Shown here: positions 34,140 through 54,336 of the stretch, one piece after another
Layout: each line of letters begins with the position of its first letter
Numbering within the stretch: position 1 is the stretch's first letter
Assembly (NCBI RefSeq): GCF_030384885.1
Contig: NZ_CP128613.1
Direction: 5' to 3' (one strand)
Source of the DNA: Escherichia coli
GTDB taxonomy: Bacteria > Pseudomonadota > Gammaproteobacteria > Enterobacterales > Enterobacteriaceae
DNA length: 64,000 nt
The notes under the pieces: model-generated
The model's database searches: none
What the model was told of the DNA's origin: nothing
Seen by the model: the letters and a program-made list of their open reading frames with translations, nothing else
Position numbers and translations under genes: made by a program

Positions 34140-34183
34140 TGGTGGGCTGGCGGGAGTTGAACCCGCGTCCGAAATTCCTACAT
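34140..34183. repeat. attL: direct repeat of ssrA 3' end (1-nt deletion relative to attR copy)
   Basis: TGGTGG-GCTGGCGGGAGTTGAACCCGCGTCCGAAATTCCTACAT matches 48498-48542 except for one missing A. Confidence 0.85.
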
Positions 34184-34310
34184 ACTAATAATATATCTTT
34201 AAAATCAAAATATTCTATTATTTATCAATGTATTATGTTTATGTGGTGTTAAGGGGTTTATATGGGTTTTAGTTCTCTGCCGCCAAAATGCCGCCAAAAA
34301 AATTGAATGG

Positions 34311-34336
34311 TAAAACGCCAGTTCGTTGAACTGGCG
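34311..34336 (-). terminator. Rho-independent terminator of the dcd-like/thyX-like operon
   Basis: Perfect hairpin CGCCAGTTC-G-TTGAACTGGCG followed (on minus strand) by TTTT, 10 nt after the thyX-like stop. Confidence 0.55.
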
Positions 34337-34346
34337 AGATCTTGTC

Positions 34347-35114
34347 TTATTGTTTTATTATCTTAACGTGCGCCGTTCCTCCATTGACTTTTTCGAAATC
34401 TTGGAACAAGGCAGGGGCATCTTGAGTTACAATATCGTAAAGTTTTTCTGAAACTGTTCTCATTTCATAGTCACCCTGTATTGCTCCTCTCATTTCGAAG
34501 AAGTGTCGAATTGCGCGAGCATTTGCTGTGACGATTATTTTTGTCTCGGTTGCATTAGGCAATATAGAGCGAGAAGCGCTTCTTAAGGCCCGCATTTTTT
34601 CTTTTTTGTTCTCATACGATTGGTTTTCACGGATTTTTTTCAAGGATTGCTTATAAAAATCCAGACTACTTTCAATATGTTGGCACCATGACTTAAACAA
34701 TTCTGGGTCATTTTTTACTTCTATAGGGGCTACGAATTCAGCATCGGATTCATCATGATACTGTTGGGATAACTGGCTATATGAAAAACCAGCTCTATGC
34801 CGAACTAGCTGGTGTGTAAATGCACGAGATACCCCAGTAATTAAAAAGGTCCAGTTCAAATGTTCTAAGACACTTTCATGCCCTTGAATAATTAAATTGT
34901 TGATATATTGACTTGTAGTCCGTGGAGACTGCTTATCCTCTCCAAAAGACATATAACATAGCCTGCCAGCGGCCTCTACCAGAAGCTCAGCTTCGGTCGC
35001 CTGCCCTTTGCGAACCCATTGCAATGATGATGTGTTTAAAAAATCATCAAAAACATTACTTTCAAATGAAGGGTGTGATATGCATTTTACTGATAAATCA
35101 GAGATTTTTATCAT
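34347..35114 (-). CDS. ThyX-family (flavin-dependent thymidylate synthase, Thy1 domain) homolog
   Basis: 255 aa; signature RHR-x8-S (LVRHRAGFSYSQLSQQY), upstream GHESVLEH and downstream TANARAIRHFF blocks align with canonical ThyX (GHETPFEH ... WFRHRIASYNELSGRY ... TVNARSLMNF). Low GC. Confidence 0.75.
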   Translation of the reverse strand: MIKISDLSVKCISHPSFESNVFDDFLNTSSLQWVRKGQATEAELLVEAAGRLCYMSFGEDKQSPRTTSQYINNLIIQGHESVLEHLNWTFLITGVSRAFTHQLVRHRAGFSYSQLSQQYHDESDAEFVAPIEVKNDPELFKSWCQHIESSLDFYKQSLKKIRENQSYENKKEKMRALRSASRSILPNATETKIIVTANARAIRHFFEMRGAIQGDYEMRTVSEKLYDIVTQDAPALFQDFEKVNGGTAHVKIIKQ

Positions 35115-35116
35115 TT

Positions 35117-35902
35117 TTACTCCCGTATAGCTTTTGGGGTGCTTACTTTAGCATCAACCTTTGGTTCGTTTGATTTAGCATTTTTTAGTAATTCAACGGT
35201 GCTTTTTAGGCTATTTATTTCATTTTGTTGAACTTTTATTGTTAATTCAAGATCTTTTGTACTACTGACATTACTGGATACTATTTGAAATAAGAAAGGA
35301 ATTGCTAGGGTTATCAACGTTAGCATTAAGGCTGCTATCGCAATTATAAAGCCAGTTTTTTTCGCAATGATTTTATTGATTTCTTTCGGAAGTCGTTTAT
35401 CAAGTCCTGCAAAATCCTTTCCCATTCTAGAAAGTTGATCATCATCCAATTTATTTACGATTTTTCCTTGGTAACCTTTAGTCGGTATTATTGTTTTAAA
35501 TAATAACATTCGGGCTACTGCTGAATTTTGTGTCAATGAGAATGGTTCTTTTGACATATTTACAAGATATATTGAAATTATGCCATTATATCCAGGGTCA
35601 ATATGCCCTGGATTCGTCATGATAATTCCATTTTTTGATAGTGTGTTTCTTGGAAATATTACACCAGCTAAATTTTTTGCAAGTTGGAATTTTTCATTTA
35701 ACTCTAATATTACAGTTTCCCCTGGCATCAGGATATGGTTGTTACGTGTTTTTTTATTGTCTTGACAGTCTGGTATATGTATTGTTTTTACAGAGAGATC
35801 AATGCTTGCAGATTGAACTTTAAATGTTCCATTTAATACCGTTAATGGATCAAAAATGTTGCCTCGCTGAATTTCATCATTGATTTCTATTTCAGACAGC
35901 AT
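35117..35902 (-). CDS. dCTP deaminase/dUTPase-superfamily protein with C-terminal transmembrane helix and coiled-coil tail
   Basis: 261 aa; residues 1-150 align with E. coli Dcd (ASIDLSVKT / LMPGETVILEL / GHIDPGYNGIISIYLVNMSKEPFSLTQNSAVARMLL vs ATVDVRLGN / LHPGELALAV / [34 protein letters not shown]); C-terminal hydrophobic segment GFIIAIAALMLTLITLAIPFLF then K/E-rich tail. 2-bp gap to the thyX-like gene. Confidence 0.75.
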   Translation of the reverse strand: MLSEIEINDEIQRGNIFDPLTVLNGTFKVQSASIDLSVKTIHIPDCQDNKKTRNNHILMPGETVILELNEKFQLAKNLAGVIFPRNTLSKNGIIMTNPGHIDPGYNGIISIYLVNMSKEPFSLTQNSAVARMLLFKTIIPTKGYQGKIVNKLDDDQLSRMGKDFAGLDKRLPKEINKIIAKKTGFIIAIAALMLTLITLAIPFLFQIVSSNVSSTKDLELTIKVQQNEINSLKSTVELLKNAKSNEPKVDAKVSTPKAIRE

Positions 35903-35928
35903 ATCAAAATCCTATATTTGTAAAGTTA

Positions 35929-36942
35929 TTATAAATTAGCCAGAGGGTTTTTTATTACTGCATCTTCAAGATGCTCTGGGGAAAAATGTGCATAAATCAT
36001 AGTCATTTTTATATCAGAGTGGCCTAAAATATCTCGTAAAACCAAAATATTACCACCATTCATCATAAAATGGCTGGCGAATGTATGGCGCAGAACGTGA
36101 GTGCATTGGCCCTCTGGTAACTCAATGTCAGCTCGCTTTACTGCTCGTTCAAAGGCTTTTCTGCAAGGAGTGAATAACTTCCCTCTGTTCTTAGGGAGTT
36201 CGTCATACAGATCCTGAGATATCGGCACGGTACGGTTTTTCTTGCCCTTAGTCTTGGTATAGGTGATCCGGTATTTCGATAACTGATGGCCCTGCAGATT
36301 TTCGGCTTCACTCCAGCGCGCGCCGGTGGCCAGGCATATTTTTGTAATTAAAAGTAGACTGGGGCTTTGAGAATCAGCACAGGCATCCAGCAGACGTTTA
36401 ATTTCTTCCGGGGTCAGGAACGACAGTTCACCCTCAGCAATTTTAAATGTTGGCAGCCCGGCAAGCGGATTGGGGGCTGACCAGTGGCCCAACTTTTTCA
36501 GTGTGCCAAAAACAGATGATAGGTTGCGCTGTTCAAGGTTTACAGTGCGGGGCTTAACGGGCGACATAAGCGTGCCCTCTTCATTTCGCACTTCACCTTT
36601 TAGCCGCGCTTCTCGGTATTTAGTAAAATCACCGGCTGTCAGCTCTGAGGCGATGGGATCGCCTAGACCATTACAGATAATTCTAAGTTTCGCCATGAGG
36701 CGCTTGGGGTCTGCGAGTGTTTGACCATACAGGGAATACCACTGCTCAATTAATTCTGATAGGTGTCGCCGATCTTCCTTTTCCCCCAGCCATGGCTTTT
36801 TGTTCACTTCTTCCATTGTGAAGCTTTCAAAAGCAATGGCTTCGCCTTTCGTAGCAAATTGCTTACGCACGCGCTTGCCATTGCGTCCATGGGGATAGCA
36901 CTCGCACAACCATTTACCGTTTGGCTGTTTTCTGACAGTCAT
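35929..36942 (-). CDS. int: Tyrosine recombinase, P2/186-type prophage integrase
   Basis: 337 aa; N-terminal GRNGKRVRKQFATKGEAIAFE, catalytic-region motifs (LATGARWSEA, HVLRHTFASHF, MIYAHF) typical of P2-like integrases. Confidence 0.85.
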   Translation of the reverse strand: MTVRKQPNGKWLCECYPHGRNGKRVRKQFATKGEAIAFESFTMEEVNKKPWLGEKEDRRHLSELIEQWYSLYGQTLADPKRLMAKLRIICNGLGDPIASELTAGDFTKYREARLKGEVRNEEGTLMSPVKPRTVNLEQRNLSSVFGTLKKLGHWSAPNPLAGLPTFKIAEGELSFLTPEEIKRLLDACADSQSPSLLLITKICLATGARWSEAENLQGHQLSKYRITYTKTKGKKNRTVPISQDLYDELPKNRGKLFTPCRKAFERAVKRADIELPEGQCTHVLRHTFASHFMMNGGNILVLRDILGHSDIKMTMIYAHFSPEHLEDAVIKNPLANL

Positions 36943-36944
36943 GT

Positions 36945-37577
36945 TTAGATACTCTTTATTACTTTGACTGCACGCCCAATAACTTCCACATCATCAGTAG
37001 AGCACTCGAAAGACGCTTCATCTTGATTTACTACAATCTTATTGCCGGGAATCCGCATGATTTTTGCAACAATAATCATTCCATCAATATTGATAAGCCA
37101 GAATCCATTGCTGACCTGTTTAATTGATTTATCGATGAGATAACAATTAGTAGGGGTTTCTAAGAACATCAATTCTTCATAATCTGCAGGTAATATGCTG
37201 TGGTCTAGGAAAATCTCTTCATCAATACTGAGTTGTCCATTCTCCAGGGTTCCTTTAGGAATAGCTGGAGTTATGAGTTTGGATAACGGTTTAATTGCTT
37301 GTTTGTTCTCATTATGAGAACTTTTCTCAGGCTCAGCTCCTCCTTTCATGCTTCCCTGTCCTGTAGCTAACCAAAGCAACGAAACACCGGTTTCTAGTGC
37401 GCACTGAATTATCCAGTCAGCAGGAAAGCTGTCACGTAACACTCTGTTTGCCATAGTGCTTTTTGAGACATTCAGGTGCTCGCTTAATGCCTGCTTAGTT
37501 GTGAATCCATAAGCCTCAAGCAGCCTTTCAATAGCTGCCTTACCTCCCGTATCGGAACCCATTCTGATGTTTAACAT
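36945..37577 (-). CDS. Phage CI-like repressor (186 CI-type HTH)
   Basis: 210 aa; HTH region LSEHLNVSKSTMANRVL; immediately upstream of and overlapping int start (cI-int operon), divergent from apl/cox-like gene. Confidence 0.7.
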   Translation of the reverse strand: MLNIRMGSDTGGKAAIERLLEAYGFTTKQALSEHLNVSKSTMANRVLRDSFPADWIIQCALETGVSLLWLATGQGSMKGGAEPEKSSHNENKQAIKPLSKLITPAIPKGTLENGQLSIDEEIFLDHSILPADYEELMFLETPTNCYLIDKSIKQVSNGFWLINIDGMIIVAKIMRIPGNKIVVNQDEASFECSTDDVEVIGRAVKVIKSI

Positions 37578-37698
37578 TGGTGATCTCCATTTGACAATCT
37601 TGAATCAAGATCGTAATGTCTTCATGTCTCTTGATGTGAGAGTTTAAGAGACGGGCTAAAACGAACTAACACGCACACAAAGTAAGAGATACTGCACT

Positions 37699-37941
37699 AT
37701 GAGTACTGATATTTCAATTCGTGTACCAAAAGAGATGGCTACGCCTGCAGAGTTCGCAGAGTGGGAGGGTATTTCCCGCGGCTCTGTTTACCAAAAAATT
37801 CACCATGGTCAACTTGCTAAGTACATGGTCAAGAAAGAAAAAAACAAAGGCCGCGTAAGCCTGCGTTATCTGATGTACAAAACCGATCAGGTCCGTGAAT
37901 CCCTCGGTCATTCCAACTTCCGCGTCATTGTTGGTAAGTAA
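37699..37941 (+). CDS. Apl/Cox-like excisionase/lytic switch regulator
   Basis: 80-aa basic protein divergently transcribed from cI-like gene, HTH-like EWEGISRGSVYQKI. Confidence 0.6.
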   Translation: MSTDISIRVPKEMATPAEFAEWEGISRGSVYQKIHHGQLAKYMVKKEKNKGRVSLRYLMYKTDQVRESLGHSNFRVIVGK

Positions 37942-37973
37942 GTTCAATTATGGGAACTTTCTAAGGGGGCACC

Positions 37974-38483
37974 ATGTTTGATTACAAGATTTCCAAACAT
38001 CCGCATTTCGATGAAGCCTGTAGGGCTTTTGCACTGCGCCACAACCTGGTGCAACTGGCAGAACGTGCAGGCATGAATGTGCAGATTCTGCGGAACAAGC
38101 TGAACCCAGCTCAACCTCATTTATTAACTGCACCAGAAATCTGGTTGCTTACCGATCTGACTGAAGATTCAACGCTGGTAGATGGTTTTCTGGCTCAGAT
38201 TCACTGCCTGCCATGTGTACCGATTAATGAGGTGGCAAAAGAGAAACTGCCACATTACGTCATGAGTGCAACCGCAGAGATCGGGCGTGTCGCGGCAGGT
38301 GCGGTTTCTGGCGATGTAAAAACCAGTGCAGGCCGTCGTGATGCGATCAGCAGCATTAACTCTGTTACACGACTGATGGCGCTGGCTGCTGTTTCATTGC
38401 AGGCCCGTTTACAGGCTAATCCTGCGATGGCGAGTGCGGTTGATACCGTGACTGGCCTCGGTGCTTCATTCGGTTTGCTGTGA
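37974..38483 (+). CDS. CII-like phage regulatory protein (186 CII-like)
   Basis: 169 aa; position and size match phage 186 CII; HTH-like N-terminus. Confidence 0.6.
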
Positions 38484-38489
38484 GGTGCT

Positions 38490-38787
38490 TATGCTGATGA
38501 AAGAACCATCATTTGCATCGCTCCTGGTAAAACAAAGTCCGGCAATGCACTACGGTCACGGCTGGATCATGGGTGAGGATGGTAAACGCTGGCATCCGTA
38601 CCGTTCACAAGATGAATTGCTGTCTGAATTGACCACGAGGAAACGGAGAAAGTCCAAATGTATGCGGCAGAAAATAAAGTGGTTTATCACTTTCGTTACA
38701 GAGGGGAGAATTATTCAGTACCTGAAGATGATTTGCTCTGTTGCTATCCGTCGTTGTCGGGCGATGGTAGCTACTTTTTCACGCTAA
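38490..38787 (+). CDS. Hypothetical small phage protein (possibly shorter; overlaps next ORF out of frame)
   Basis: ORF begins MLMKEPSFASLLVKQSPAMHYGHGWIMGEDGKRWHPYRSQDELLSEL; distal part overlaps 38658-38882 and may be a read-through artefact. Confidence 0.35.
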
Positions 38788-38882
38788 AGGATGGAACCTT
38801 TATACGTGGTGAAAAAGTACAAGAAGTGATGCGTATAAAGACATCACCTCTTGAACGTTATCGGCGAAATATTTATCGGTAA
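38658..38882 (+). CDS. Hypothetical small phage protein
   Basis: 74 aa, preceded by GGAGAAAG Shine-Dalgarno. Confidence 0.5.
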   Translation: MYAAENKVVYHFRYRGENYSVPEDDLLCCYPSLSGDGSYFFTLKDGTFIRGEKVQEVMRIKTSPLERYRRNIYR

Positions 38883-39121
38883 CGATCTATCAGTGTCTGT
38901 ATCAGATGAGTGAATTCTTGTTGTTTAACCGAACCTAAAGGAAGTTTGTTTAATTCTTCGCGGAGGAGCTCAAAAAATGCTGATTGATTTGCTGAGTCAG
39001 TTCGAAATAAGGAGTGGATCAGACCTGAAACAAGAATTCGTTGAACAGCAACCTCATCGCGAAGACTGGAGATCTCGTTTTCAAGTTGCTCTATACGCTC
39101 TCTTTCAACCGGGTTCAACAT
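38873..39121 (-). CDS. Hypothetical coiled-coil protein (82 aa), opposite strand to early operon
   Basis: ORF MLNPVERERIEQLENEISSLRDEVAVQRILVSGLIHSLF...; heptad-like pattern; opposite orientation to flanking genes. Confidence 0.4.
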   Translation of the reverse strand: MLNPVERERIEQLENEISSLRDEVAVQRILVSGLIHSLFRTDSANQSAFFELLREELNKLPLGSVKQQEFTHLIQTLIDRYR

Positions 39122-39202
39122 TGATGATTCCTTCTAGCTATCAATATGTTGGTAATGGATCATATCAAAAATTTTTTAGTAGATGTGTTGTGGGATGCAT
39201 AA

Positions 39203-39544
39203 ATGGCTATTGAAGGCACTGCGGCGACTGTTCCATTAAGCCCCGGTGAACGCCTGAATGGACTTAATCACATTGCGGAGTTAAGGGCGAAAGTTTTTGG
39301 CCTGAATATTGAGTCAGAGCTTGAGCGGTTTATTAAAGATATGCGTGATTCACGGGATATTAATAGCGAACAAAATAAACGGGCACTGGCTGCCATATTC
39401 TTTATGGCAAAAATTCCAGCTGAACGTCATAGCATCAGCATTAATGAGCTGACCACTGACGAAAAGCGGGAGTTGATTAAAGCAATGAATCATTTTCGTG
39501 CAGTGGTGAGCTTATTTCCCAGACGGCTAACCATGCCGAATTAA
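39203..39544 (+). CDS. Hypothetical phage protein (113 aa)
   Basis: ORF in early-operon orientation. Confidence 0.5.
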   Translation: MAIEGTAATVPLSPGERLNGLNHIAELRAKVFGLNIESELERFIKDMRDSRDINSEQNKRALAAIFFMAKIPAERHSISINELTTDEKRELIKAMNHFRAVVSLFPRRLTMPN

Positions 39545-39605
39545 CCAACTAATGAAATTAATGGCGTAAACCCGCCGGGCATCCCTTTATCTAAATTCAG
39601 GAGAA

Positions 39606-39845
39606 TTGATTATGCGTAATATTGAAACCCTCTCGACCAAAACCGGACCGGATGACGCAGGGCTTAATATTTTACTGACAGAGGCTCGTCTGGAAGAACG
39701 CCGGGCAAGGGCTGAAGCAATGGCAGCTCGCCTTGATAGCCTGGCGTGTCATATCACATCCCGCCAGCTAACCCACGTCGAAGCGGCAGAACTGCTTCGT
39801 GTGACTGCTGAAGCAATCCAGAACGAAGCGCAGGAGATCCACTGA
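39606..39845 (+). CDS. Hypothetical phage protein (79 aa)
   Basis: ORF with GGAGAA RBS; stop overlaps next start (ATGA). Confidence 0.5.
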   Translation: MIMRNIETLSTKTGPDDAGLNILLTEARLEERRARAEAMAARLDSLACHITSRQLTHVEAAELLRVTAEAIQNEAQEIH

Positions 39846-40072
39846 TGGCTGATGCAATGGATCTCGTACAGCAGCGCGTTGAAGAAGAACGCCAACGCCA
39901 TATCCGTGCTGCCCGTGCCAAAACGCCGGGCGTGTCCCGCGTGCTTTGCATTGAGTGTGAAGCGCCAATTCCGCCAGCACGCCGCCGTGCCATTCCGGGT
40001 GTGCAGCTTTGCATTACCTGTCAGGAAATCGCAGAGCTGAAAGGCAAACATTACAACGGAGGTGCTGTATGA
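39845..40072 (+). CDS. TraR/DksA-family C4 zinc-finger protein
   Basis: 75 aa with CIECEAPI...CITCQ four-Cys motif. Confidence 0.7.
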   Translation: MADAMDLVQQRVEEERQRHIRAARAKTPGVSRVLCIECEAPIPPARRRAIPGVQLCITCQEIAELKGKHYNGGAV

Positions 40073-40926
40073 GCACCATCCTGAAATGGGCGGGAAATAA
40101 AACTGCCATAATGTCCGAACTGAAAAAACATCTTCCTGCTGGCCCGCGACTGGTTGAACCTTTCGCGGGTTCCTGTGCTGTGATGATGGAGACGGATTAT
40201 CCCAGCTATCTGGTTGCGGATATTAATCCTGATTTAATCAACCTCTATAAAAAGGTTGCCGCTGATTGTGAATCGTTTATATCTCGCGCCAGAGTTTTAT
40301 TTGAGATCGCAAACAGGGAGGTGGCTTATTACAACATAAGGCAGGAGTTTAATTACTCAACTGAAATTACTGATTTCATGAAAGCGGTATATTTCCTGTA
40401 TCTCAATCGTCACGGTTACCGTGGTTTATGTCGCTATAACAAGAGCGGGCATTTCAACATTCCCTACGGTAATTATAAAAATCCGTATTTCCCTGAAAAA
40501 GAAATTCGCGCATTTGCAGAAAAGGCCCAGCGAGCAACGTTTATCTGCGCCAGCTTTGATGAAACGCTGGCGATGTTGAAGGCGGGGGATGTGGTGTATT
40601 GCGATCCGCCGTATGACGGTACGTTTTCCGGCTATCACACTGACGGCTTCACTGAAGATGACCAGTATCACCTGGCATCTGTTCTTGAACATCGGTCATC
40701 AGAAGGACATCCGGTCATTGTTTCTAACAGTGACACATCCCTGATCCGTTCGCTGTATCGCAATTTTACTCACCACTACATCAAGGCAAAACGCAGCATC
40801 GGTGTGGCAGCTGGCGAGGGTAAATCAGCAACAGAAATCATTGCTGTTTCCGGGCCGCGCTGCTGGGTGGGATTTGATTATTCGCGTGGCGTGGATAGTT
40901 CTGCCGTGTACGGAGTACGTGCATGA
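40069..40926 (+). CDS. DNA adenine methyltransferase (Dam-like, D12 class N6-adenine MTase)
   Basis: Protein [25 protein letters not shown]...EPFAGSCAV... and DPPY catalytic motif (VYCDPPYDG). Confidence 0.85.
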
Positions 40927-43337
40927 GTCATGCCGATATGAACAACTGCTGCGGCTTTAACGAAGCTGCCGCATCGTTCTCATGGAACAGCCCGAAAAAG
41001 GCCATTAACCCTTATCTGGACCCGGCGGAAGTTGCGCCGGTTTCTGCGCTTTCAAACCTGATCACTCTGTACGCTACTGATAACGAGCAGGAACAACTGC
41101 GCCGCGAGGCACTGAGTGATCAGGTCTGGGAGCGTTATTTCTTTAATGAATCCCGTGATCCTGTCCAACGCGAAATGGAGCAGGATAAGCTCATTAGCCG
41201 GGCAAAGATGGCGCATGAGCAGCAGCGTTTTAATCCAGACATGGTCATTCTGACTGACGTCAACGCCCAGCCTTCCCATATCAGCAAGCCGCTGATGCAA
41301 CGTATTGAATATTTCAGCAGCCTGGGCAGGCCAAAGGCTTATTCCCGCTATTTGCGTGAGACGATTAAGCCATGTCTGGAACGACTGGAGCATGTACGCG
41401 ACAGCCAGCTATCTGCATCTTTTCGTTTTATGGCAAGCCATGAAGGGCTGGACGGTCTGCTGATCCTGCCTGAAATGAGTCAGGATCAGGTGAAACGCCT
41501 GTCTACCCTTGTCGCTGCGCATATGAGCATGTGTCTTGATGCCGCTTGTGGTGATTTGTACGCCTCCGATGATGTTAAGCCAGAAGAAATCCGCAAGACA
41601 TGGGAAAAGGTGGCTGCAGAAACCCTGCGACTGGATGTCATACCGCCTGCGTTTGAGCAACTCCGCCGGAAAAGAAACCGCCGCAAACCTGTGCCTTATG
41701 AACTCATTCCGGGTTCGCTGGCGCGTATGCTGTGCGCCGACTGGTGGTATCGGAAATTATGGAAGATACGTTGCGAATGGCGGGAAGAGCAGTTGCGTGC
41801 TGTCTGCCTGGTCAGCAAAAAAGCATCTCCCTATGTCAGCTATGAAGCCGTGATGCATAAACGTGAGCAGCGCCGTAAGTCGCTGGAGTTTTTCCGTTCT
41901 CATGAACTGGTGAACGAAGACGGCGACACGCTGAACATGGAGGATGTGGTAAACACCAGCAGCAGCAACCCGGCGCATCGCCGCAACGAGATGATGGCCT
42001 GTGTTAAAGGCCTAGAGCTTATCGCGGAAATGCGTGGTGACTGCGCCGTTTTCTACACCATCACCTGTCCGTCACGTTTCCATTCCACGCTAAATAACGG
42101 CAGGCCAAACCCGACCTGGACCAACGCGACAGTAAGACAAAGCAGCGATTATCTGGTCGGCATGTTTGCTGCATTTCGTAAGGCTATGCACAAAGCCGGG
42201 TTGCGCTGGTATGGCGTGCGGGTGGCTGAGCCGCATCATGACGGCACAGTTCACTGGCACCTGTTGTGTTTCATGCGCAAAAAAGACCGCCGCGCCATTA
42301 CTGCATTGTTGCGTAAGTTTGCCATCCGTGAAGACCGCGAGGAGCTGGGCAATAACACGGGGCCACGCTTTAAGTCTGAGCTGATAAACCCGCGCAAAGG
42401 AACGCCGACAAGCTACATTGCGAAATATATCAGTAAGAATATTGACGGGCGTGGTCTGGCTGGCGAGATCAGTAAGGAAACGGGTAAATCCCTGCGTGAT
42501 AACGCTGAATACGTTAATGCCTGGGCGTCTCTGCATCGTGTTCAGCAATTCCGCTTCTTTGGCATTCCGGGGCGTCAGGCTTACCGTGAACTGCGATTGC
42601 TGGCTGGTCAGGCGGCAAGGCAACAGGGTGACAAAAAAGCAGGTGCGCCGGTACTGGATAACCCGCGCCTTGATGCCATCCTGGCTGCTGCTGATGCTGG
42701 TTGTTTTGCCTCCTACATCATGAAGCAGGGCGGCGTACTGGTTCCCCGCAAATATCACCTCATCAGAACCGCTTATGAAATCAACGAAGAGCCGACCGCC
42801 TATGGCGATCACGGTATTCGTATTTATGGCATCTGGTCACCCATTGCAGAGGGCAAGATCTGCACTCATGCAGTGAAGTGGAAAATGGTTCGTAAGGCCG
42901 TTGACGTTCAGGAGGCGGCAGCCGACCAGGGCGCTTGCGCCCCTTGGACTCGTGGCAATAACTGTCCCCTTGCTGAAAATTTGAACCAACAGGAGAAAGA
43001 TAAATCAGCTGATGGGGACACCAGAACGGACATTACCCGCATGGATGACAAGGAGTTGCACGATTACCTGCACAGTATGAGCAAAAAAGAGCGCCGGGAA
43101 CTGGCTGCAAGGTTACGCCAGGTGAAACCGAAACGGCGTAAAGACTACAAACAGCGAATTACAGACCATCAGCGACAGCAGCTCGTCTATGAACTGAAGT
43201 CCAGGGGATTTGATGGCAGTGAGAAAGAAGTCGATTTGCTCCTTCGCGGTGGCAGTATTCCGTCAGGAGCAGGCCTGCGTATTTTCTATCGGAACCAGCG
43301 TCTGAAGGAAGATGATAAGTGGCGGAACCTGTATTAA
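40923..43337 (+). CDS. Phage replication initiation protein (186/P2 gene A-type endonuclease)
   Basis: 804-aa protein following Dam in early operon; size and position match P2/186 protein A. Confidence 0.7.
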
Positions 43338-43489
43338 TTACGCGGGTTAACAATTCGTGCCCTTAATAATACCAGGCATATCAGGCTGATGAATGTAAAA
43401 AAACGTTTTACATCAGTAAGATTATTATATACTGTAAATATAAACAGTGGTTATCTATACAGTATTGCTTTGGTGTCATAGGAGGAAAG

Positions 43490-43678
43490 ATGCAGGACTA
43501 TTTTTTGGAGTCTTTGAAGCTCCAGCGCATTGATTTTTTTCTTAAGCTTGTAGCGGCTAGTGAGTGTAGTGATGAAGAGAAGGGGCTGGCTCTGCAGTGG
43601 GTTTCTGAACTGACAGATGAACTCATGGCAAAAATCAGAACCCACGAATACAACCGCTCAATGGATGTCATCAGCTGA
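43490..43678 (+). CDS. Hypothetical protein (62 aa)
   Basis: Small ORF with GGAGGAAAG RBS upstream of ATG. Confidence 0.45.
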   Translation: MQDYFLESLKLQRIDFFLKLVAASECSDEEKGLALQWVSELTDELMAKIRTHEYNRSMDVIS

Positions 43679-43688
43679 GGTGACTTTT

Positions 43689-43922
43689 ATGCGCATTGAA
43701 ATAATGATCGATAAAGAGCAGAAGATTAGCCAGTCTACCCTGGACGCCCTTGAATCCGAGCTTTACCGCAATCTGCGCCCCCTGTATCCCAAAACGGTAA
43801 TCCGTATCCGTAAAGGTAGCTCTAACGGTGTGGAACTGACCGGACTGCAACTGGACGAAGAAAGAAAACAAGTGATGAAAATTATGCAGAAGGTGTGGGA
43901 AGACGACAGCTGGCTGCATTGA
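43689..43922 (+). CDS. DinI-family protein
   Basis: 77 aa MRIEIMIDKEQKISQSTLDALESELYRNLRPLYP...VWEDDSWLH, resembling DinI (MRIEVTIAK...DALAGELSRR...W...). Confidence 0.7.
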   Translation: MRIEIMIDKEQKISQSTLDALESELYRNLRPLYPKTVIRIRKGSSNGVELTGLQLDEERKQVMKIMQKVWEDDSWLH

Positions 43923-44035
43923 TTTTGTCAATAGACGCTTGTTTTTACTAATCAAAAAGGGTTACATATGAGTGAGAGGCGATGTCAATCAGATATCGCC
44001 TTGTTTTTTGTCAAGAAAAGAATAATAGGCTAAAA

Positions 44036-44713
44036 ATGAAAATTAATAATGTAGCGTTACCAATATCTCTTGCTGTAATCCTAACTGGTTGCGTGCCACA
44101 TGCTTCTAACCGAAATATCACTGCTATTGAAGTGGTGAAGCCTGCTATTGGGCAAAGTGCTACCGCCTACATGGGCGATCCCATTATCACATCTGCTACT
44201 GGATTTAAAACGGACGTACTAGAACTTGGTGCGGCTAATGGTGCATTGTCTTCTATCGCTGCTGGTACATATTGCAGTGAGGGGAATGGAATTTACCGCA
44301 ATTATCATAACCCTCAAGCTGTTGCGTTAAAAAATCTCTATGGGCAAATCGGTAACTATGTTGATTATGTTAGTTACGATGCTGCAAAAAATGAGATATC
44401 ACCGCCAAATGGTACTTCTTATACTGCATCAGAAATTTCTATCAAACGTGTTCCTGATGGGCTGTGTCGAGTTAGTAACTCATTGGTTAAGACTATCGAA
44501 TACAATGGAAATGCAGGCGGTGTAATGAAGTTCACCTATCGTGAATTTGCAAACGATATGGCTCGTGCAGCATTTACAACAGATTTTTCTGTAGATTCTA
44601 AGGGAAGTGACGTTATCGCTTACAAAGGTGCCAAGTTCAAAGTGAACAAGGCTGATAACTCGTCTATTTCTTATACAATTATTTCTGGCTTTGACAAGGC
44701 TGTCACGTTCTAG
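44036..44713 (+). CDS. Predicted lipoprotein (225 aa), function unknown
   Basis: Signal peptide with lipobox (MKINNVALPISLAVILTGC); low-GC; located in cargo region after replication gene. Confidence 0.6.
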   Translation: MKINNVALPISLAVILTGCVPHASNRNITAIEVVKPAIGQSATAYMGDPIITSATGFKTDVLELGAANGALSSIAAGTYCSEGNGIYRNYHNPQAVALKNLYGQIGNYVDYVSYDAAKNEISPPNGTSYTASEISIKRVPDGLCRVSNSLVKTIEYNGNAGGVMKFTYREFANDMARAAFTTDFSVDSKGSDVIAYKGAKFKVNKADNSSISYTIISGFDKAVTF

Positions 44714-45038
44714 GTTTCACGCTTACTGAGTATGTTACGATTTTGCACATTCTGCATAAACGCGCATGTCTATGCTGCATGAGATCGCATGATCGTTTGA
44801 GGATCTTTTGTGTTAAGGCCCGCCAGTTCTGGCGGGCTTTTGCGTAGATCATGCAGGTGCATGAAAACCACTACATAAAGCGGGCAGGCGTGGCGGGGAT
44901 ACGAGCGCGCGTTATGACAAATAGATGATTAGCCTGATTTATTCACAGCTGTATAAATGATCACCTTGTAATTAGGTAAGTAATGTCTTCTATTATCATT
45001 GATTTGATAGGATTAATCTGTTTTTTGAGGATTAGAGG

Positions 45039-47375
45039 ATGATTGAAGAGGTAGTTATTGACAAAGTAGGCTCATATAATGGCCCTACTCAGCTTTTACA
45101 TGGGCTTTCTAAATTTAACTATTTATATGGAGCTAATGGTGCAGGTAAAACAACTATAAGTAAAATTATTAATGACCCTGAACAATATCCAACATGTCCG
45201 ATTAAATGGAAAAATAATATATCTTTAATAAGCTACGTATATAATAAAGATTTTGTTGAAAGAAATTTTAGTCAAGATAAAATTAAAGGTGTATTTACCC
45301 TTGGTAGCGATCTTAAGGAGGATGAAGAGAAATTAATATCTCTTGAAGAAGAAAAAAATAAGCTAATAGAATCTATTATAGCAAAGGAAAAGCTAATAGA
45401 TGGTGGTGATAATATATTAGGCGTTGTTAAACAAATCGAAGACCATGAAAAATCTTTTAAAGATTCATGTTGGAAGCAAAAAGTAAAACATGATAATGTG
45501 TTCTCAAAGGCTTTTGAGGGATTAAGGAATAGTAGTGAAAAATTTAAAGCTAGAGTGTTGGCTGAGTATGAAAATAACACATCAGAAGTTTGCTCAATAG
45601 CAGAGCTAATTGAGAAAGCAAAAATTGTTTTTTCTACTGAATTGACATCACATGTATCAATTACAATTCCATCCTTCAATGGGATAGATGATATTTTGAG
45701 TAGGGAGATTTGGAGTGAGCGTATTCTAGGGAAAAAAGACGTTAGTGTTTCAGACTTAATTACAATGCTCAATAACAGTGATTGGGTTAAGGAAGGTTTA
45801 ACATATTTCAGTAAATCTAATCCCAAGTGCCCATTCTGCCAGCAGGATGTAAATGATAATATATTTGATAATCTATCATCATATTTTGATAAAACATATG
45901 AGTTAAAAAAAAGAGAAATCGATGCATTGGTTTTACAATATGAACATCAACTTAATAATATCTTGCAGGCGATAGATGATATAAGGGCGATTAAATCTCC
46001 ATTCATAAATTATGAAGTGTTTGAGGATAAGGCTAAGATAGTATTATCTGAATTAAACAAGAATTTTGAATTGGCAAAAAATAAACGCAATTTTTTAAGT
46101 GAATCAGTTCATTTTAGTGACTTAAGTGAAGTTGTTGATGATTTTATTTCTTTTTTGAATGATTCAAATCTATTGATAGATAATAATAACAAAATACACA
46201 GTAATAGAAAGGTAGAGGCTAGTAATCTTTCTAATCAGATATGGGCATATATCGTAAAGGTGGAGTTAAAGTCTGAAATAACTTCTTACCGTAGCGAATC
46301 TGATAAATTTAATAGGAAGTTACAAGGGCTTAAATCTGGGTTAGAGGAAGACAAAAAGAAGTTAATGTTAAATGCTTCGGCTATTGAGGCAATTGAGTCT
46401 AATAAAACCAGTACTCTTCCAACTATTACAAAAATTAACAAGATTCTGGATTCTTATGGCTTCAAAAATTTTTACTTAAAACCCTCCGAAGATAAAAAGC
46501 ATTATATGATAGTGAGAGATAGTGGAGATAATGCTCGTACAACCCTTAGCGAGGGAGAAAAGACATTTATCACTTTTTTGTATTTTTATAGCCTTGTTAG
46601 AGGGAGTGATAATGCATCAGGTGTTTTAGATGATCGTGTTGTAGTATTTGATGATCCAATTTCAAGTTTAGATAGTGATATTCTGTTTATTGTAAGTTCG
46701 TTGATTAAAGATTTAATGGAGGATGTTCGTAAGGATGAAGGAAATATTAAGCAAATTATATTCCTTACACATAATATTTATTTTCATAAAGAGTTGACTT
46801 TTAATACTAAAAGATCCGGTAATCAAGCAATGAAAGAGGAGACTTTTTGGATTGTAAGGAAAAAAGGGAAGGTCTCATATCTTGAAAAGTGCGAATCAAA
46901 CCCAATAAAAACGTCTTATGATTTGCTCTGGTGCGAATTGAGAAGAACAGATATTAATAATAATACTATACAAAATACAATGCGAAGGATTTTGGAGAAT
47001 TACTTTAAGATATTAGGTGGGATGGATATTAGGAAGCTTGAATGTCATTTTTATGGTGATGAAAAAATCATATTTAAATCTTTAGTGTCATGGATTAATG
47101 ATGGTTCTCATTTTGCAGGTGATGATCTTTATATGAATTTAGATACGGAGTCTGTGCAAAAATATTTAATTGTTTTTCAGAAGATATTTGAGTGTAGTGA
47201 GCATACTGCCCATTACAAAATGATGATGGGTGAGTTTTATAGACCGTTAAATGAGTCACTTCATCTACAAGATGAGTTTGATATTGATGATAGTGCGAAT
47301 GATGAGTATGCTTCGTCAAAAATTGAGATAGAAGATGGAATAAACACATCTCTACATAGTAATACATATTTGTAA
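45039..47375 (+). CDS. PrrC/RloC-like ABC-type ATPase (AAA_13-like) with CxxC motif and C-terminal putative HEPN-like domain
   Basis: 778 aa; Walker A GANGAGKTT, Walker B VVVFDDPISSLD, H-loop-like FLTHN, long K/E-rich coiled-coil insert containing CPFC; C-terminal domain with RKLECH (R-x4-H) and RRILE (R-x3-E) motifs; very low GC. Confidence 0.65.
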   Translation: MIEEVVIDKVGSYNGPTQLLHGLSKFNYLYGANGAGKTTISKIINDPEQYPTCPIKWKNNISLISYVYNKDFVERNFSQDKIKGVFTLGSDLKEDEEKLISLEEEKNKLIESIIAKEKLIDGGDNILGVVKQIEDHEKSFKDSCWKQKVKHDNVFSKAFEGLRNSSEKFKARVLAEYENNTSEVCSIAELIEKAKIVFSTELTSHVSITIPSFNGIDDILSREIWSERILGKKDVSVSDLITMLNNSDWVKEGLTYFSKSNPKCPFCQQDVNDNIFDNLSSYFDKTYELKKREIDALVLQYEHQLNNILQAIDDIRAIKSPFINYEVFEDKAKIVLSELNKNFELAKNKRNFLSESVHFSDLSEVVDDFISFLNDSNLLIDNNNKIHSNRKVEASNLSNQIWAYIVKVELKSEITSYRSESDKFNRKLQGLKSGLEEDKKKLMLNASAIEAIESNKTSTLPTITKINKILDSYGFKNFYLKPSEDKKHYMIVRDSGDNARTTLSEGEKTFITFLYFYSLVRGSDNASGVLDDRVVVFDDPISSLDSDILFIVSSLIKDLMEDVRKDEGNIKQIIFLTHNIYFHKELTFNTKRSGNQAMKEETFWIVRKKGKVSYLEKCESNPIKTSYDLLWCELRRTDINNNTIQNTMRRILENYFKILGGMDIRKLECHFYGDEKIIFKSLVSWINDGSHFAGDDLYMNLDTESVQKYLIVFQKIFECSEHTAHYKMMMGEFYRPLNESLHLQDEFDIDDSANDEYASSKIEIEDGINTSLHSNTYL

Positions 47376-47424
47376 TTTTATTGCAATTGCCAGTAGCAAC
47401 AATACGGTACTGGCAACTAATATT

Positions 47425-47965
47425 TTAGTTAAGCTCATATGGAGAAAATTCTATAAGTTTCTCCCCGAGCCATGCGTTTATTTCCATAAATCGTTTTTGC
47501 AAAGGAATTAATTCATTTATCACAAAAACCTTACTAGCCTTCTCCACATCCCCAAACCCCCCAACATTATTAGGCATTATCCCCATCATTTGCGGCGGCA
47601 CACGGTGTGCCGCCATCATGTCGTCCCGGCTCACGTTCTTGATATTCAGAAACTCATCCTTCGCCGCGACTTCTGACAACGGGATAATCTGAAGCCCGTC
47701 CTTTTTGCCGTTAGGAGAGTACATAAACAGGTTGCGGAAGTTGCCTGGCCCTTTGGCACTTTTCATTGCGTTGCGGAGGTTGTTCACATCTTCTTGGTTC
47801 TGTGCGGCATCGGTCATGTACATGATGAAACCTGCATGGCTGCCGTTGATGTAATACTTACGGCGGAACAGTGTGGCGGACTCGTTGAGCAGGGCTGACG
47901 GGATGGCAGAGAGATAACCTGGCAGGCCGTAGATCTCCTGGTTGATGTCCGGTTCCGCCCTTAAT
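47425..47965 (-). pseudogene. Phage portal protein (P2 gpQ-like), 3' fragment only
   Basis: C-terminal portal-like sequence (...FRNLFMYSPNGKKDGLQIIPLSEVAAKDEFL...); reading frame extends upstream without start until sequence character changes near 47965. Confidence 0.6.
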
Positions 47966-48153
47966 CATCTCAACCATGCGTTACAGCTCGATCCCCGCTG
48001 TGGCGTGAAAAAAGACAAACAGCAGCTGGAGCGCAGACTGCGCAATGACAGCCGCTGACAGAACGTGCCCCCGCGCACGGGCGGCACGGGGTGGCGAAAG
48101 GCACAGCCACATCAAAACCCCGTCCACCGCCCTTTATTTCAGGAGAAAGCAGC

Positions 48154-48354
48154 ATGAAGTTTGTTGCGCCAGAACAGGCACCGGAACAGGCGGAAATCAT
48201 CAGAAACACGCCGTTCTGGCCTGATGTGGACCTGTCGGAGTTTCGCAGTGTCATGCGCACTGACGGCACGGTGACGCAGCCGCGTTTAAAGCAGGTTGCG
48301 CTGTCGGCAATTTCGGAGGTCAACGCACCGATACGACCATTTGCATTGATGTAA
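48154..48354 (+). CDS. Hypothetical small protein in prophage remnant (66 aa)
   Basis: ORF MKFVAPEQAPEQAEIIRNTPFWPDVDLSEFRSV... preceded by AGGAG RBS; identity not recognised. Confidence 0.4.
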   Translation: MKFVAPEQAPEQAEIIRNTPFWPDVDLSEFRSVMRTDGTVTQPRLKQVALSAISEVNAPIRPFALM

Positions 48355-48497
48355 ACAAAGTGAAGTTCTTCCATGTGAAACCTCTTTGCATGATTTCAAG
48401 ATGGCGACAGGCAAGATGGACGCAAAAGTCTGTCGCCATTTTGCCGCCACTACCAAAGAAAAAGGGGCTACGCTTTCACGTAACCCCTTGATTTATT

Positions 48498-48542
48498 TGG
48501 TGGAGCTGGCGGGAGTTGAACCCGCGTCCGAAATTCCTACAT
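48498..48542. repeat. attR: ssrA 3'-terminal att core
   Basis: TGGTGGAGCTGGCGGGAGTTGAACCCGCGTCCGAAATTCCTACAT, repeated at 34140-34183. Confidence 0.85.
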
Positions 48543-48860
48543 CCTCGGTACTACATGCTTAGTCAGTCTTTACATTCGCTTGCCAGCTGCGGACGGACAC
48601 GCCACTAACAAACTAGCCTGATTAAGTTTTAACGCTTCAACCCCAGGCAGGGCTTCCACGCGATCTCTTTTGGGTTTGACCTCTCTTGATCCCCGTCCTA
48701 AGAGCGGAGGCTAGGGAGAGAGGGCTCTAAGCAGGTTATTAAGCTGCTAAAGCGTAGTTTTCGTCGTTTGCGACTATTTTTTGCGGCTTTTTACGAGGCC
48801 AACCGCCCCTCGGCATGCACCTTGGGTTTCGCAAATCCCGTCGAATCCAGAATCAGCCCC
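48498..48860 (-). ncRNA. ssrA: tmRNA (SsrA)
   Basis: Reverse complement matches E. coli tmRNA from 5' GGGGCTGATTCTGGATTCGACGGG to 3' ...GGGTTCAACTCCCGCCAGCTCCACCA, including the tag-coding region. Confidence 0.95.
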
Positions 48861-50482: not shown

Positions 50483-50506
50483 ACGTCTTTGAGAGCAACT
50501 TTATTA

Positions 50507-50848: not shown

Positions 50849-50996
50849 AGTGATTTGATTCCTTTTCGGGCCCGAGCAGTACGTGGCTCATCTGTAATAT
50901 GCCGATGATAATAGACCTTTCATCACTTTAAAACCTTTTGCTTTCCGGTCTTACGGCGTTTTGCTGTTTACTCTGACCGTGAAGCAGGAAAAAAGT

Positions 50997-52743: not shown

Positions 52744-54336
<1,593 letters not shown>

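What the first reader, a model, noticed from the sequence alone, without database searches (positions are those of the whole stretch)
40069..40926. Orphan Dam-like adenine methyltransferase retained in the defective prophage
A D12-class MTase (DPPY motif) without an adjacent restriction gene is retained in the early operon. If expressed from the prophage it adds a second GATC-type (or other) methylase to the host, possibly affecting epigenetic state or protecting DNA from restriction.
Basis: partly seen in the sequence, partly recalled or inferred. Interest (0 to 1): 0.3.

Follow-up and report, generated by a model that had tools for sequence, protein, structure and literature searches.

The report
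Phage Dam methylase in prophage remnant
This is an intact copy of a well-known phage gene for a GATC-type DNA adenine methylase, sitting in its usual place beside the replication gene of a P2/186-family prophage that has lost all its particle-building genes. It is probably silent in the resting cell, so the finding is ordinary.

Summary
Window 40069-40926 (+) is an intact 285-aa ORF and a strong Dam-family D12-class N6-adenine methyltransferase: Pfam PF02086 E=1e-76, TIGR00571 322 bits against a cut-off of 115, and 47% identity to E. coli Dam structures. The DPPY motif and six of seven GATC-contact residues are kept. There is no restriction partner, and the prophage really is defective: 14.3 kb between ssrA att repeats, with about 21 kb of late genes gone.

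The gene is not a novelty. It is the standard occupant of the slot between the TraR-like zinc-finger gene and replication gene A in dam-carrying Peduoviridae (Fels-2, RE-2010, Cartapus, Klebsiella phages). It is found in 1238 of 5426 complete E. coli genomes. It is 98% identical to a protein named "retron EC67 DNA adenine methylase", a name that traces to Hsu et al. 1990.

It has no promoter of its own and overlaps both neighbouring genes by ATGA. It lies downstream of pR, and the CI repressor is intact, so it is most likely silent in lysogeny and serves phage DNA during lytic replication.

Supporting comparative evidence: relatives lacking dam are five-fold depleted in GATC (O/E 0.13-0.23), while dam-carrying ones match the host (0.76-0.79).

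Retention here looks positional, not selected. Verdict: already known, low interest.

The parts
40069..40926 (+). dam-family orphan N6-adenine DNA methyltransferase gene (285 aa)
   Evidence: PF02086 E=1e-76. TIGR00571 321.9 bits. 47% identity to EcoDam PDB chains. The DNA is 100% identical over this interval in the E. coli genomes listed, where the gene is annotated as WP_000104157.1.
40603..40614 (+). codons for catalytic motif IV, D179-P-P-Y182
   Evidence: Sequence GAT CCG CCG TAT. It aligns to EcoDam D181-Y184.
40162..40176 (+). codons for AdoMet-binding motif I, F32-A-G-S-C36 (FxGxG with the last Gly replaced by Cys)
   Evidence: Aligns to EcoDam F35-V-G-A-G39. The same FAGSC is present in all five lineage members examined.
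40058..40062 (+). Shine-Dalgarno GGAGG, 6 nt before the ATG
   Evidence: Read directly from the sequence.
39845..40072 (+). TraR/DksA-type C4 zinc-finger gene; its TGA overlaps the dam ATG (ATGA)
   Evidence: PF01258 E=3e-11. TIGR02419 65.8 bits against a cut-off of 59.7.
40923..43337 (+). gene A, rolling-circle replication endonuclease (804 aa, intact); its ATG overlaps the dam TGA (ATGA)
   Evidence: PF05840 E=7e-127. Same length as the A genes of RE-2010 and Cartapus.
37591..37619 (+). candidate early promoter pR (TTGACA, 17 nt, TAATGT). GATC sites lie at 37582 and 37609.
   Evidence: Sequence. The position relative to the cI start matches the annotated pR of phage 186. The -10 hexamer is weak, so the strict scan did not call this pairing; the scan found a neighbouring one at 37571-37598. 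Inferred, not shown.
36945..37577 (-). CI immunity repressor (210 aa, intact)
   Evidence: PF07022 and PF16452. 208/210 identical to the CI of phage Cartapus.
35929..36942 (-). integrase
   Evidence: PF24624 and PF00589.
37699..39544 (+). upstream early-operon genes: apl/cox-like (37699-37941), cII (37974-38483), fil with its C-terminus replaced (from about 38461), DUF5347 (39203-39544)
   Evidence: homologous annotation.
38661..39200 (.). roughly 540-bp insertion in the early operon, absent from RE-2010. It carries an antisense 82-aa ORF (38873-39121, minus strand) with a minus-strand terminator-like hairpin (38853-38820).
   Evidence: A gap in the blastn collinearity with RE-2010. ORFs. Hairpin. 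No T-run follows the hairpin on the + strand.
39606..39845 (+). DUF2732 gene
   Evidence: PF10809 E=1e-28.
43432..43447 (+). LexA-box-like site CTGTAAATATAAACAG upstream of the Tum-like genes
   Evidence: Pattern search and sequence. Same arrangement as the 186 p95/LexA/tum module.
43490..43922 (+). TumA-like 62-aa ORF (43490-43678) and DinI-like/TumB ORF (43689-43922): the presumed SOS antirepressor module
   Evidence: PF06183 DinI E=7e-23. PsP3 tumA/tumB and 186 tum annotations.
44887..44905 (+). cos-like site GGCGTGGCGGGGATACGAG. Conserved GATC sites lie 96 and 85 nt upstream (44791, 44802), with further sites at 44783 and 44847.
   Evidence: The same sequence lies within the region annotated as the putative cos site in Cartapus.
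34146..34186 (.). att repeat (a copy of the ssrA 3' end) at the int-proximal boundary of the remnant
   Evidence: 41-nt direct repeat, 98% identical to 48505-48545.
48505..48545 (.). att repeat inside the 3' end of ssrA (tmRNA gene 48498-48860, minus strand)
47492..48326 (-). two abutting scraps of late genes: a portal fragment (47492-47956) and a small-terminase/head-completion fragment (47954-48326)
   Evidence: blastn against RE-2010 positions 11813-12277 and 17150-17520. Weak PF04860 portal hit.

Best explanation
The gene is the phage's own Dam-type (GATC) adenine methyltransferase. It is a conserved accessory gene of the early/replication operon of one lineage of P2/186-family phages (Felsduovirus, Elveevirus, Gegavirus, Kapieceevirus). 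It is an orthologue, at the 98% level, of proteins named 'retron EC67 DNA adenine methylase'.

How it is expressed. It is transcribed only from the early promoter pR, as part of the run apl, cII, fil, DUF5347, DUF2732, traR-like, dam, A. It is translationally coupled to both neighbours through ATGA overlaps. In the lysogen CI keeps pR off, so the enzyme is not made. After DNA damage the LexA-controlled Tum-like antirepressor would lift CI repression, and Dam would be made together with the replication nuclease gpA.

What it does. Its job is to methylate GATC sites on fast-replicating phage DNA, which the limiting host Dam cannot keep fully methylated. This spares the phage from MutH/mismatch-repair cleavage of unmethylated GATC sites. 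It also lets progeny DNA leave fully methylated, and so resistant to MboI/DpnII-type restriction.

Why it is here. In this window the prophage has lost all late genes. The gene is a still-intact passenger, kept because the deletions spared the early region, not because the host uses it.

What is shown: gene identity, motifs, synteny and overlaps, intact CI, the LexA box, purifying selection in the lineage, and the GATC-frequency contrast. What is inferred: GATC specificity of this exact protein, silence in lysogeny, and the MutH/restriction rationale.
For: Family and fold-level match to EcoDam.

The residues that PMC4417163 assigns to GATC recognition are kept: K9, Y119, L122, R124, P134 and Y138.

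The traR-like, dam, A order with 4-nt overlaps recurs in RE-2010, Fels-2, Cartapus, ST15-OXA48phi14.1 and ST340-VIM1phi10.2.

In phage 186 the same slot holds other non-essential ORFs. Its record notes that translation to the end of the upstream ORF appears necessary for translation of A.

dN/dS is 0.10-0.18 among lineage members, even at dS of about 1.5.

CI is intact and 99% identical to that of the phage Cartapus. No + strand promoter-like site lies between pR and dam. A LexA box sits upstream of the Tum-like genes.

GATC O/E is 0.13-0.23 in six relatives lacking dam (186, PsP3, P2, Wphi, L-413C, fiAA91-ss). It is 0.76-0.79 in four that carry dam, and 0.72 in the host flanks. The contrast is specific to GATC among the 16 palindromic tetramers and also holds inside orthologous gene A.

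Literature: GATC avoidance and under-methylation in enterophages, and the MutH counter-selection idea (PMC5014478). Host Dam is limiting for high-copy DNA (bioRxiv 10.1101/2020.06.22.160242). Phage orphan MTases are typically silent in lysogens. A cluster-mate 98% identical carries the Ec67 Dam name. The Fels-2 STM2730 annotation makes the same link.
Against: No experiment on this protein is available here. The 1990 paper that reported Dam function for the Ec67 homologue could not be read.

The protein differs from EcoDam at N120 (Arg), R137 (Asn) and motif I G39 (Cys), and lacks five residues just after DPPY. An altered or relaxed specificity is therefore not excluded.

The GATC contrast rests on 10 genomes in 5 genera and is phylogenetically confounded. 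One P2-like prophage without dam (in EC958) is intermediate at 0.53.

Silence in lysogeny is inferred from gene order and from other prophages, not measured. The pR assignment rests on geometry with 186.

The in vivo role of phage Dam enzymes is described as not well understood even in recent papers.
Confidence: 0.8

Rival explanations
1. One reading: the remnant's methylase is expressed in the resting host. It acts as a second host methylase that alters the epigenetic state or vaccinates host DNA against GATC-cutting restriction systems, and it is retained for that benefit.
For: The ORF is intact and identical to widespread copies. Orphan MTases have been proposed as 'molecular vaccines' (PMC4659465). 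Extra Dam activity can have phenotypes: Dam overproduction triggers a retron toxin system and methylates DNA that host Dam leaves unmodified, and it is mutagenic.
Against: CI is intact. There is no promoter of its own. About 99.9% of GATC sites are already methylated by host Dam. Comparable prophage Dam homologues were transcriptionally silent. A sister remnant at the same site has deleted the gene. The exact remnant architecture is not found in any of 5426 complete genomes, so there is no sign of a conserved domesticated module.
Confidence: 0.08
2. The enzyme is active but has a specificity different from, or broader than, GATC. It would then write a new mark when expressed.
For: N120 is Arg, R137 is Asn, motif I G39 is Cys, and there is a 5-residue deletion after DPPY. 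All are conserved in the lineage. The score lies below the chromosomal Dam equivalog cut-off, 288 against 441. Some phage adenine MTases are relaxed or non-specific.
Against: R124 is retained; in EcoDam, mutating it to alanine abolished discrimination at the fourth base pair. L122, P134, K9, Y138 and the intercalating Y119 are also retained. Phages that carry dam tolerate GATC specifically at host-like frequency, which is what GATC methylation predicts. The Ec67 homologue was reported as a Dam function (title cited).
Confidence: 0.07
3. The gene is an inert relic. It is either catalytically dead or matters only as an ORF whose translation carries ribosomes into gene A.
For: The motif I variant FAGSC.
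Against: dN/dS of 0.10-0.18 across the whole protein, with motifs conserved at dS of about 1.5, is far stronger constraint than a mere spacer ORF would need. DPPY, D54 and the DNA-contact residues are intact. In other phages the slot is filled by unrelated ORFs, so the coupling does not need a methylase.
Confidence: 0.05

Closest known systems
Retron-Ec67 prophage (phiR67) Dam methylase, M.Eco67Dam (Hsu, Inouye & Inouye 1990, PNAS 87:9454). The same gene occurs as STM2730 of Salmonella prophage Fels-2 and as gp10 of phage RE-2010.
   Same: 285 aa. The window protein is 98% identical to a protein carrying the Ec67 Dam name, and its DNA is 97% identical to the RE-2010 gene. Same position between the TraR-like zinc-finger gene and gene A of a 186-related phage. 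The accessory cargo hotspot next to cos, where the Ec67 retron sits, is also present here and is occupied by a different gene.
   Different: Here the surrounding prophage has lost all late genes. I could not read the 1990 paper, so the extent of its experimental proof is from memory and from its title. Identity to the original Ec67 sequence itself was not measured.
E. coli chromosomal Dam (EcoDam; PDB 2G1P, 4GOL and others)
   Same: Same fold family and motif order. 47% identity over 258 aligned residues. DPPY, D54, K9, Y119, L122, R124, P134 and Y138 are conserved.
   Different: It is not the equivalog: NF008152 gives 288 bits against a cut-off of 441. N120 is Arg, R137 is Asn, G39 is Cys, five residues after DPPY are missing, and there is a different 22-residue C-terminal tail. 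It is encoded in a repressor-controlled phage operon rather than the host dam operon.
Dam-type methyltransferases of other phages (P1/P7 Dmt, T4 Dam)
   Same: Orphan, phage-borne Dam-family enzymes. 473 phage records hold a homologue at E<=1e-20. The P1 enzyme is needed for pac cleavage in dam-minus hosts, and T4 Dam methylates GATC (PMC12707154).
   Different: Only about 36% identical to the P7 enzyme. T4 Dam structures match much more weakly (E about 5e-18). Different genomic context. No packaging role is known for P2-family phages, although two GATC sites are conserved about 90 nt from cos in the dam-carrying lineage.

Membership tests
D12-class (alpha-group) N6-adenine DNA methyltransferases, Pfam PF02086 | Full-length match to the family profile above the gathering score | tested here: met
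   258.5 bits against a cut-off of 22, profile positions 1-253 of 253.
D12-class (alpha-group) N6-adenine DNA methyltransferases, Pfam PF02086 | Catalytic motif IV (D/N)PP(Y/F) | tested here: met
   D179-P-P-Y182, aligned to EcoDam D181-Y184.
D12-class (alpha-group) N6-adenine DNA methyltransferases, Pfam PF02086 | AdoMet-binding motif I, FxGxG, and the motif II acidic residue | tested here: inconclusive
   Motif I reads F-A-G-S-C, with the last Gly replaced by Cys. D51 corresponds to EcoDam D54 and is kept. The variant is conserved under purifying selection in all five lineage members, which suggests it is tolerated, but cofactor binding was not tested.
D12-class (alpha-group) N6-adenine DNA methyltransferases, Pfam PF02086 | Alpha-group order: AdoMet region, then target-recognition region, then motif IV | tested here: met
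   Collinear alignment of residues 4-263 with EcoDam 7-270.
Dam family, GATC-specific (NCBIfam TIGR00571) | Score above the curated subfamily cut-off | tested here: met
   321.9 bits against a cut-off of 114.85.
Dam family, GATC-specific (NCBIfam TIGR00571) | Residues that read GATC in EcoDam (K9, Y119, N120, L122, R124, P134, Y138) | tested here: met
   Six of seven are identical and N120 is Arg. The residue roles come from PMC4417163.
Dam family, GATC-specific (NCBIfam TIGR00571) | Demonstrated m6A methylation of GATC | not testable with these tools
   Only indirect support. Relatives that carry dam have host-like GATC frequency and relatives that lack it are about five-fold depleted. The Ec67 homologue was reported as a Dam function (title cited; paper not held).
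Chromosomal Dam equivalog (NCBIfam NF008152 / PRK10904) | Score above the equivalog cut-off | tested here: not met
   288.1 bits against a cut-off of 441. It is a Dam-family paralogue, not the host dam.
Type II restriction-modification system (DpnII/MboI-like) | A cognate restriction endonuclease gene next to the methylase | tested here: not met
   The neighbours are a TraR-like zinc-finger gene and gpA. None of the remnant proteins scanned matched a restriction-endonuclease family. The best PADLOC model is the orphan MTase.
Early/replication operon of dam-carrying Peduoviridae (Felsduovirus and allied genera) | Position between the TraR-like zinc-finger gene and gene A, same strand, with overlapping start and stop codons | tested here: met
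   ATGA overlaps at 40069-40072 and 40923-40926. The same order and 4-nt overlaps occur in five phages from four genera.

The most novel reading that the evidence does not exclude
Two linked ideas that the data do not exclude.

(a) Gaining dam in the slot between the zinc-finger gene and A is what freed one branch of the P2/186 family from GATC avoidance. That branch may since have built Dam methylation into its own control. Two GATC sites are conserved about 90 nt from cos, even in a phage with dS of about 1.5, and two more lie in the pR region. This would make packaging or early transcription sensitive to methylation, as at P1 pac.

(b) This remnant keeps the repressor, the SOS antirepressor module, the whole early operon, int, the apl-like gene and cos, but no lysis genes. 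DNA damage could therefore produce a survivable burst of extra Dam. That could give transient hypermethylation, a mutator effect or altered phase variation.
Probability: 0.1. Interest if true: 0.5.

Novelty: already known. Interest (0 to 1): 0.12.

Why it matters
For this locus, little. It is a routine phage gene present in roughly a quarter of complete E. coli genomes, and annotation pipelines already name it. Its practical relevance is twofold. Methylome studies cannot separate it from host Dam, and it should be kept in mind when a dam-minus derivative of such a strain shows residual GATC methylation after prophage induction.

The more interesting by-product is comparative. Within one phage family, carrying dam goes with host-like GATC content and lacking it goes with five-fold depletion. 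If this holds in a controlled survey, it would be direct genomic evidence for why temperate phages carry a copy of a methylase their host already has. Recent papers still call that question unresolved.

Tried and rejected
(1) I tried to read Hsu et al. 1990 by DOI and by PMC id. It is not held, so the experimental status of the Ec67 Dam rests on its title and my memory. Searches for 'Eco67Dam' and 'STM2730' gave nothing useful.

(2) I tried to equate the gene with M.EcoMIV, the silent prophage 'Dam homolog' of ST131 strain EC958. The P2-like prophage I located in EC958 has no dam, and an earlier guess at the coordinates missed. The equivalence is unresolved, so I use that paper only as an analogy.

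(3) I looked for GATC depletion in the window's remnant as a sign of selection and found none. O/E is 0.74 against 0.72 for the host flanks. The informative contrast turned out to be with relatives that lack dam.

(4) I looked for an internal promoter or a + strand terminator between pR and dam. There was no promoter-like hit. Terminator-like hits were only slightly above the shuffle expectation (12 against 7.9 +/- 3.1) and were not pursued. The strong hairpin at 38820-38853 has its T-run only on the minus strand.

(5) I tested whether the 243-aa ORF at 43982-44713 is the phage 186 Orf97 homologue, which has the same length and blocks 186 infection. There is no similarity.

(6) I tried to find the source genome. 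The right-hand flank (window 50500-60500) is 100% identical to E. coli 2013C-4282, but that strain has a different island at ssrA. No complete genome holds this remnant as such.

(7) I did not run structure prediction or the large protein-database searches. The 2e-73 sequence match to solved Dam structures already fixes the fold.
Full report
**What is there**

Window 40069-40926 (+) is a 285-aa ORF. A GGAGG Shine-Dalgarno sits 6 nt before the ATG. The ATG overlaps the stop codon of the upstream gene (ATGA at 40069-40072). The ORF's own stop overlaps the start of the downstream gene (ATGA at 40923-40926).

The ORF matches these families:
- Pfam PF02086, D12-class N6-adenine MTase, over the whole profile: E=1e-76.
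- The NCBIfam Dam subfamily TIGR00571: 321.9 bits against a cut-off of 114.85.
- It does not reach the chromosomal-Dam equivalog NF008152: 288 bits against 441.

Against solved structures it aligns from residue 4 to 263 with E. coli Dam (2G1P, 4GOL and others) at E=2e-73. That is 47% identity over 258 aligned residues.

**Motifs and specificity residues**

I mapped the alignment onto EcoDam numbering. Residue roles come from PMC4417163.
- Conserved: catalytic DPPY (179-182), motif II Asp, the fourth-base-pair reader R124, the intercalating Y119, the contacts L122 and P134, and the first-base-pair residues K9 and Y138.
- Different: N120 is Arg, R137 is Asn, the last Gly of motif I (FxGxG) is Cys (FAGSC), five residues directly after DPPY are missing, and the C-terminal 22 residues are unrelated to EcoDam.

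These differences are features of the lineage, not decay. The same FAGSC, YRGLCRY and GNYK strings occur in RE-2010, Cartapus, ST340-VIM1phi10.2 and the 73%-identical ST15-OXA48phi14.1 protein. Pairwise dN/dS is 0.10-0.18, even where dS is about 1.5. GATC specificity is therefore the expected one, but it is inferred.

**Context**

The neighbours identify a 186-like member of the P2 family (Peduoviridae):
- integrase (35929-36942, minus strand)
- CI repressor (36945-37577, minus strand)
- an apl/cox-like gene, cII, fil, DUF5347 and DUF2732
- a TraR/DksA zinc-finger gene (39845-40072)
- dam
- the gpA replication endonuclease (40923-43337)
- a LexA-box-like site (CTGTAAATATAAACAG at 43432), followed by a 62-aa ORF and a DinI-like ORF. 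This is the arrangement of the 186 p95/tum and PsP3 tumA/tumB SOS antirepressor modules.

The element is bounded by a 41-nt repeat of the ssrA 3' end (34146-34186 and 48505-48545). It spans 14.3 kb.

Collinearity with the 34.1-kb phage RE-2010 shows what survives:
- The early region is present (35945-38660 at 94% identity; 39201-44911 at 97%).
- Only two scraps of late genes remain, a portal fragment and a small-terminase/head-completion fragment.
- All head, lysis, tail and ogr genes are gone.

PADLOC's best model for the protein is also the orphan-MTase class.

**How common and how known**

The DNA is found in 1238 of 5426 complete E. coli genomes, nearly always full length. It is 100% identical in the E. 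coli genomes listed, where it is annotated as WP_000104157.1 'DNA adenine methylase'.

It is also found in 64 phage records by blastn: Klebsiella, Salmonella, Escherichia, Yersinia, Cronobacter and Erwinia phages.

The order traR-like, dam, A, with 4-nt overlaps, recurs in phages of four genera.

Its 90% cluster has 4038 members. One of them, 98% identical, is named 'retron EC67 DNA adenine methylase'. The Fels-2 record makes the same link for STM2730. That name goes back to Hsu, Inouye & Inouye 1990, whose title states that the Ec67 element encodes 'Dam methylase functions' (cited). I could not read the paper.

Dam-family genes are widespread in phages generally: 473 records at E<=1e-20, including P7. 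The gene is therefore already known.

**Expression logic**

By geometry with the annotated phage 186 record, pR is TTGACA-17-TAATGT at 37591-37619. It faces a convergent lysogenic promoter.

The consensus scan finds no other + strand promoter-like site before dam.

A roughly 540-bp insertion (38661-39200) sits in the operon. It is absent from RE-2010 and replaces the fil C-terminus. It carries an antisense 82-aa ORF. Its hairpin has a T-run only on the minus strand, so it is not an obvious block to early transcription.

CI is full length and 208/210 identical to the CI of the phage Cartapus. The expected state is therefore dam off in the lysogen and on only after derepression.

This fits the published picture. 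A prophage Dam homologue and other prophage MTases were transcriptionally silent in an ST131 lysogen (PMC4659465). A 2025 review describes phage orphan MTases as protecting only the DNA to be exported, and often silent in lysogens (PMC12707154).

In phage 186 the slot before A holds unrelated, non-essential ORFs. Its record notes that translation to the end of the upstream ORF appears necessary for translation of A. The ATGA overlap here suggests the same coupling. That adds a reason for viable phages to keep the ORF open.

**Why a phage would carry a methylase the host already has**

Host Dam methylates about 99.9% of chromosomal GATC sites (PMC6602927). It is limiting for high-copy or fast-replicating DNA (PMC5014478). 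Enterophages are known to avoid GATC, and one proposed cause is MutH cleavage of unmethylated sites (Deschavanne & Radman 1991, as discussed in PMC5014478).

I tested whether this family fits that picture, using GATC observed/expected with a Markov expectation.

| Group | Phages | GATC O/E | GATC sites per genome |
|---|---|---|---|
| No dam | 186, PsP3, P2, Wphi, L-413C, fiAA91-ss | 0.13-0.23 | 14-31 |
| With dam | RE-2010, Fels-2, Cartapus, ST15-OXA48phi14.1 | 0.76-0.79 | 107-125 |
| Host flanks in the window | - | 0.72 | - |
| The remnant in the window | - | 0.74 | - |

The contrast is specific to GATC among the 16 palindromic tetramers. It also holds inside orthologous gene A.

This is indirect but pointed evidence that the enzyme methylates GATC on phage DNA in vivo and removes the cost of carrying the site.

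Caveats: ten genomes in five genera, with clade and trait confounded. One P2-like prophage without dam, in EC958, is intermediate at 0.53.

**Retention**

Nothing indicates that the host selects for the gene in this remnant.
- The deletions removed the late region only.
- A related remnant at the same ssrA site in strain TUM12355 has deleted DUF2732, the traR-like gene, dam and the 5' part of A.
- No complete genome in the collection carries this exact remnant.
- The strain with an identical right-hand flank has a different island at ssrA.
- The low dN/dS reflects selection in circulating phages, not in this host.

**Verdict**

It is a known, conserved phage Dam-family methylase. It is most likely GATC-specific, silent under CI, and of use to the phage during lytic replication. 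Here it is carried as a still-intact passenger of a decaying prophage.

Residual alternatives, all at low probability:
- constitutive host-level function
- altered specificity
- an inert spacer ORF

Interest is low. The GATC contrast and the conserved GATC pair beside cos are the only points worth a follow-up.

Noticed in passing
Comparison of loci L007, L011-L021 with window 34187-48504: Within the P2/186 family, GATC frequency splits cleanly by whether the phage carries this dam gene. O/E is 0.13-0.23 in six phages without it and 0.76-0.79 in four with it; the host flanks are 0.72. No other palindromic tetramer differs. A P2-like prophage in EC958 without dam is intermediate (0.53). I do not know whether this has been published for this family.
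   Followed up: partly
window 44783-44905: The cos-like site (GGCGTGGCGGGGATACGAG, 44887) is retained in the remnant. GATC sites lie 96 and 85 nt upstream of it in every dam-carrying genome examined, including a divergent Klebsiella phage. 186 and P2 have no GATC in the 260 bp before cos. P2 reads GAGATTGCAT where this element reads GAGATCGCAT. A terminator-like hairpin lies between the GATC pair and cos.
   Followed up: partly
window 37582 and 37609: Two GATC sites lie in the roughly 120-bp cI/apl switch region. One is just upstream of the candidate pR -35 hexamer. The other is in the spacer next to the -10 hexamer. About 0.5 would be expected by chance. Conservation was not examined.
   Followed up: no
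window 45039-47375 (+): A 778-aa AAA_13 ATPase lies between cos and the portal fragment, which is the cargo hotspot where retron Ec67 sits in its prophage. It matches the PADLOC defence candidate PDC-S06 at E=1.5e-266, with weak similarity to PrrC and LmuB.
   Followed up: partly
window 34347-35902 (-): Between the integrase and the att repeat lies a gene pair: a dCTP-deaminase/dUTPase-like protein (261 aa, below the NCBIfam equivalog cut-offs) followed by a ThyX thymidylate synthase (TIGR02170, 155 bits). Similar positions in other E. coli genomes are annotated 'anti-phage dCTP deaminase'. PADLOC v2 has no hit. The pairing with thyX may be worth a look.
   Followed up: partly
window 38661-39200: A roughly 540-bp insertion in the early operon, absent from RE-2010. 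It replaces the C-terminus of fil and carries an 82-aa ORF on the opposite strand (38873-39121) with its own strong terminator-like hairpin, plus a 74-aa + strand ORF (38658-38882). No family hit for either. The same insertion is present in strain TUM12355.
   Followed up: partly
window 34187-48504 as a whole: The remnant keeps int, the apl-like gene, cI, cII, gene A (where phage 186 and P2 carry their replication origin), the SOS antirepressor module and cos, but no structural genes. On paper it could excise, replicate, and be packaged by a related helper phage, rather like a satellite. At 14.3 kb, a dimer would roughly fill a P2-size head. Pure speculation.
   Followed up: no
window 26188-33979: To the left of the remnant lies a tRNA-Met gene (26188-26263) and an AT-rich island (GC 0.445). 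The island carries a 1551-aa AIDA/pertactin-type autotransporter (29324-33979). Its repeat region holds GATC sites at an exact 24-nt spacing (32963, 32987, 33011, 33035). No GATC cluster was seen in the 370 bp upstream of the gene.
   Followed up: partly
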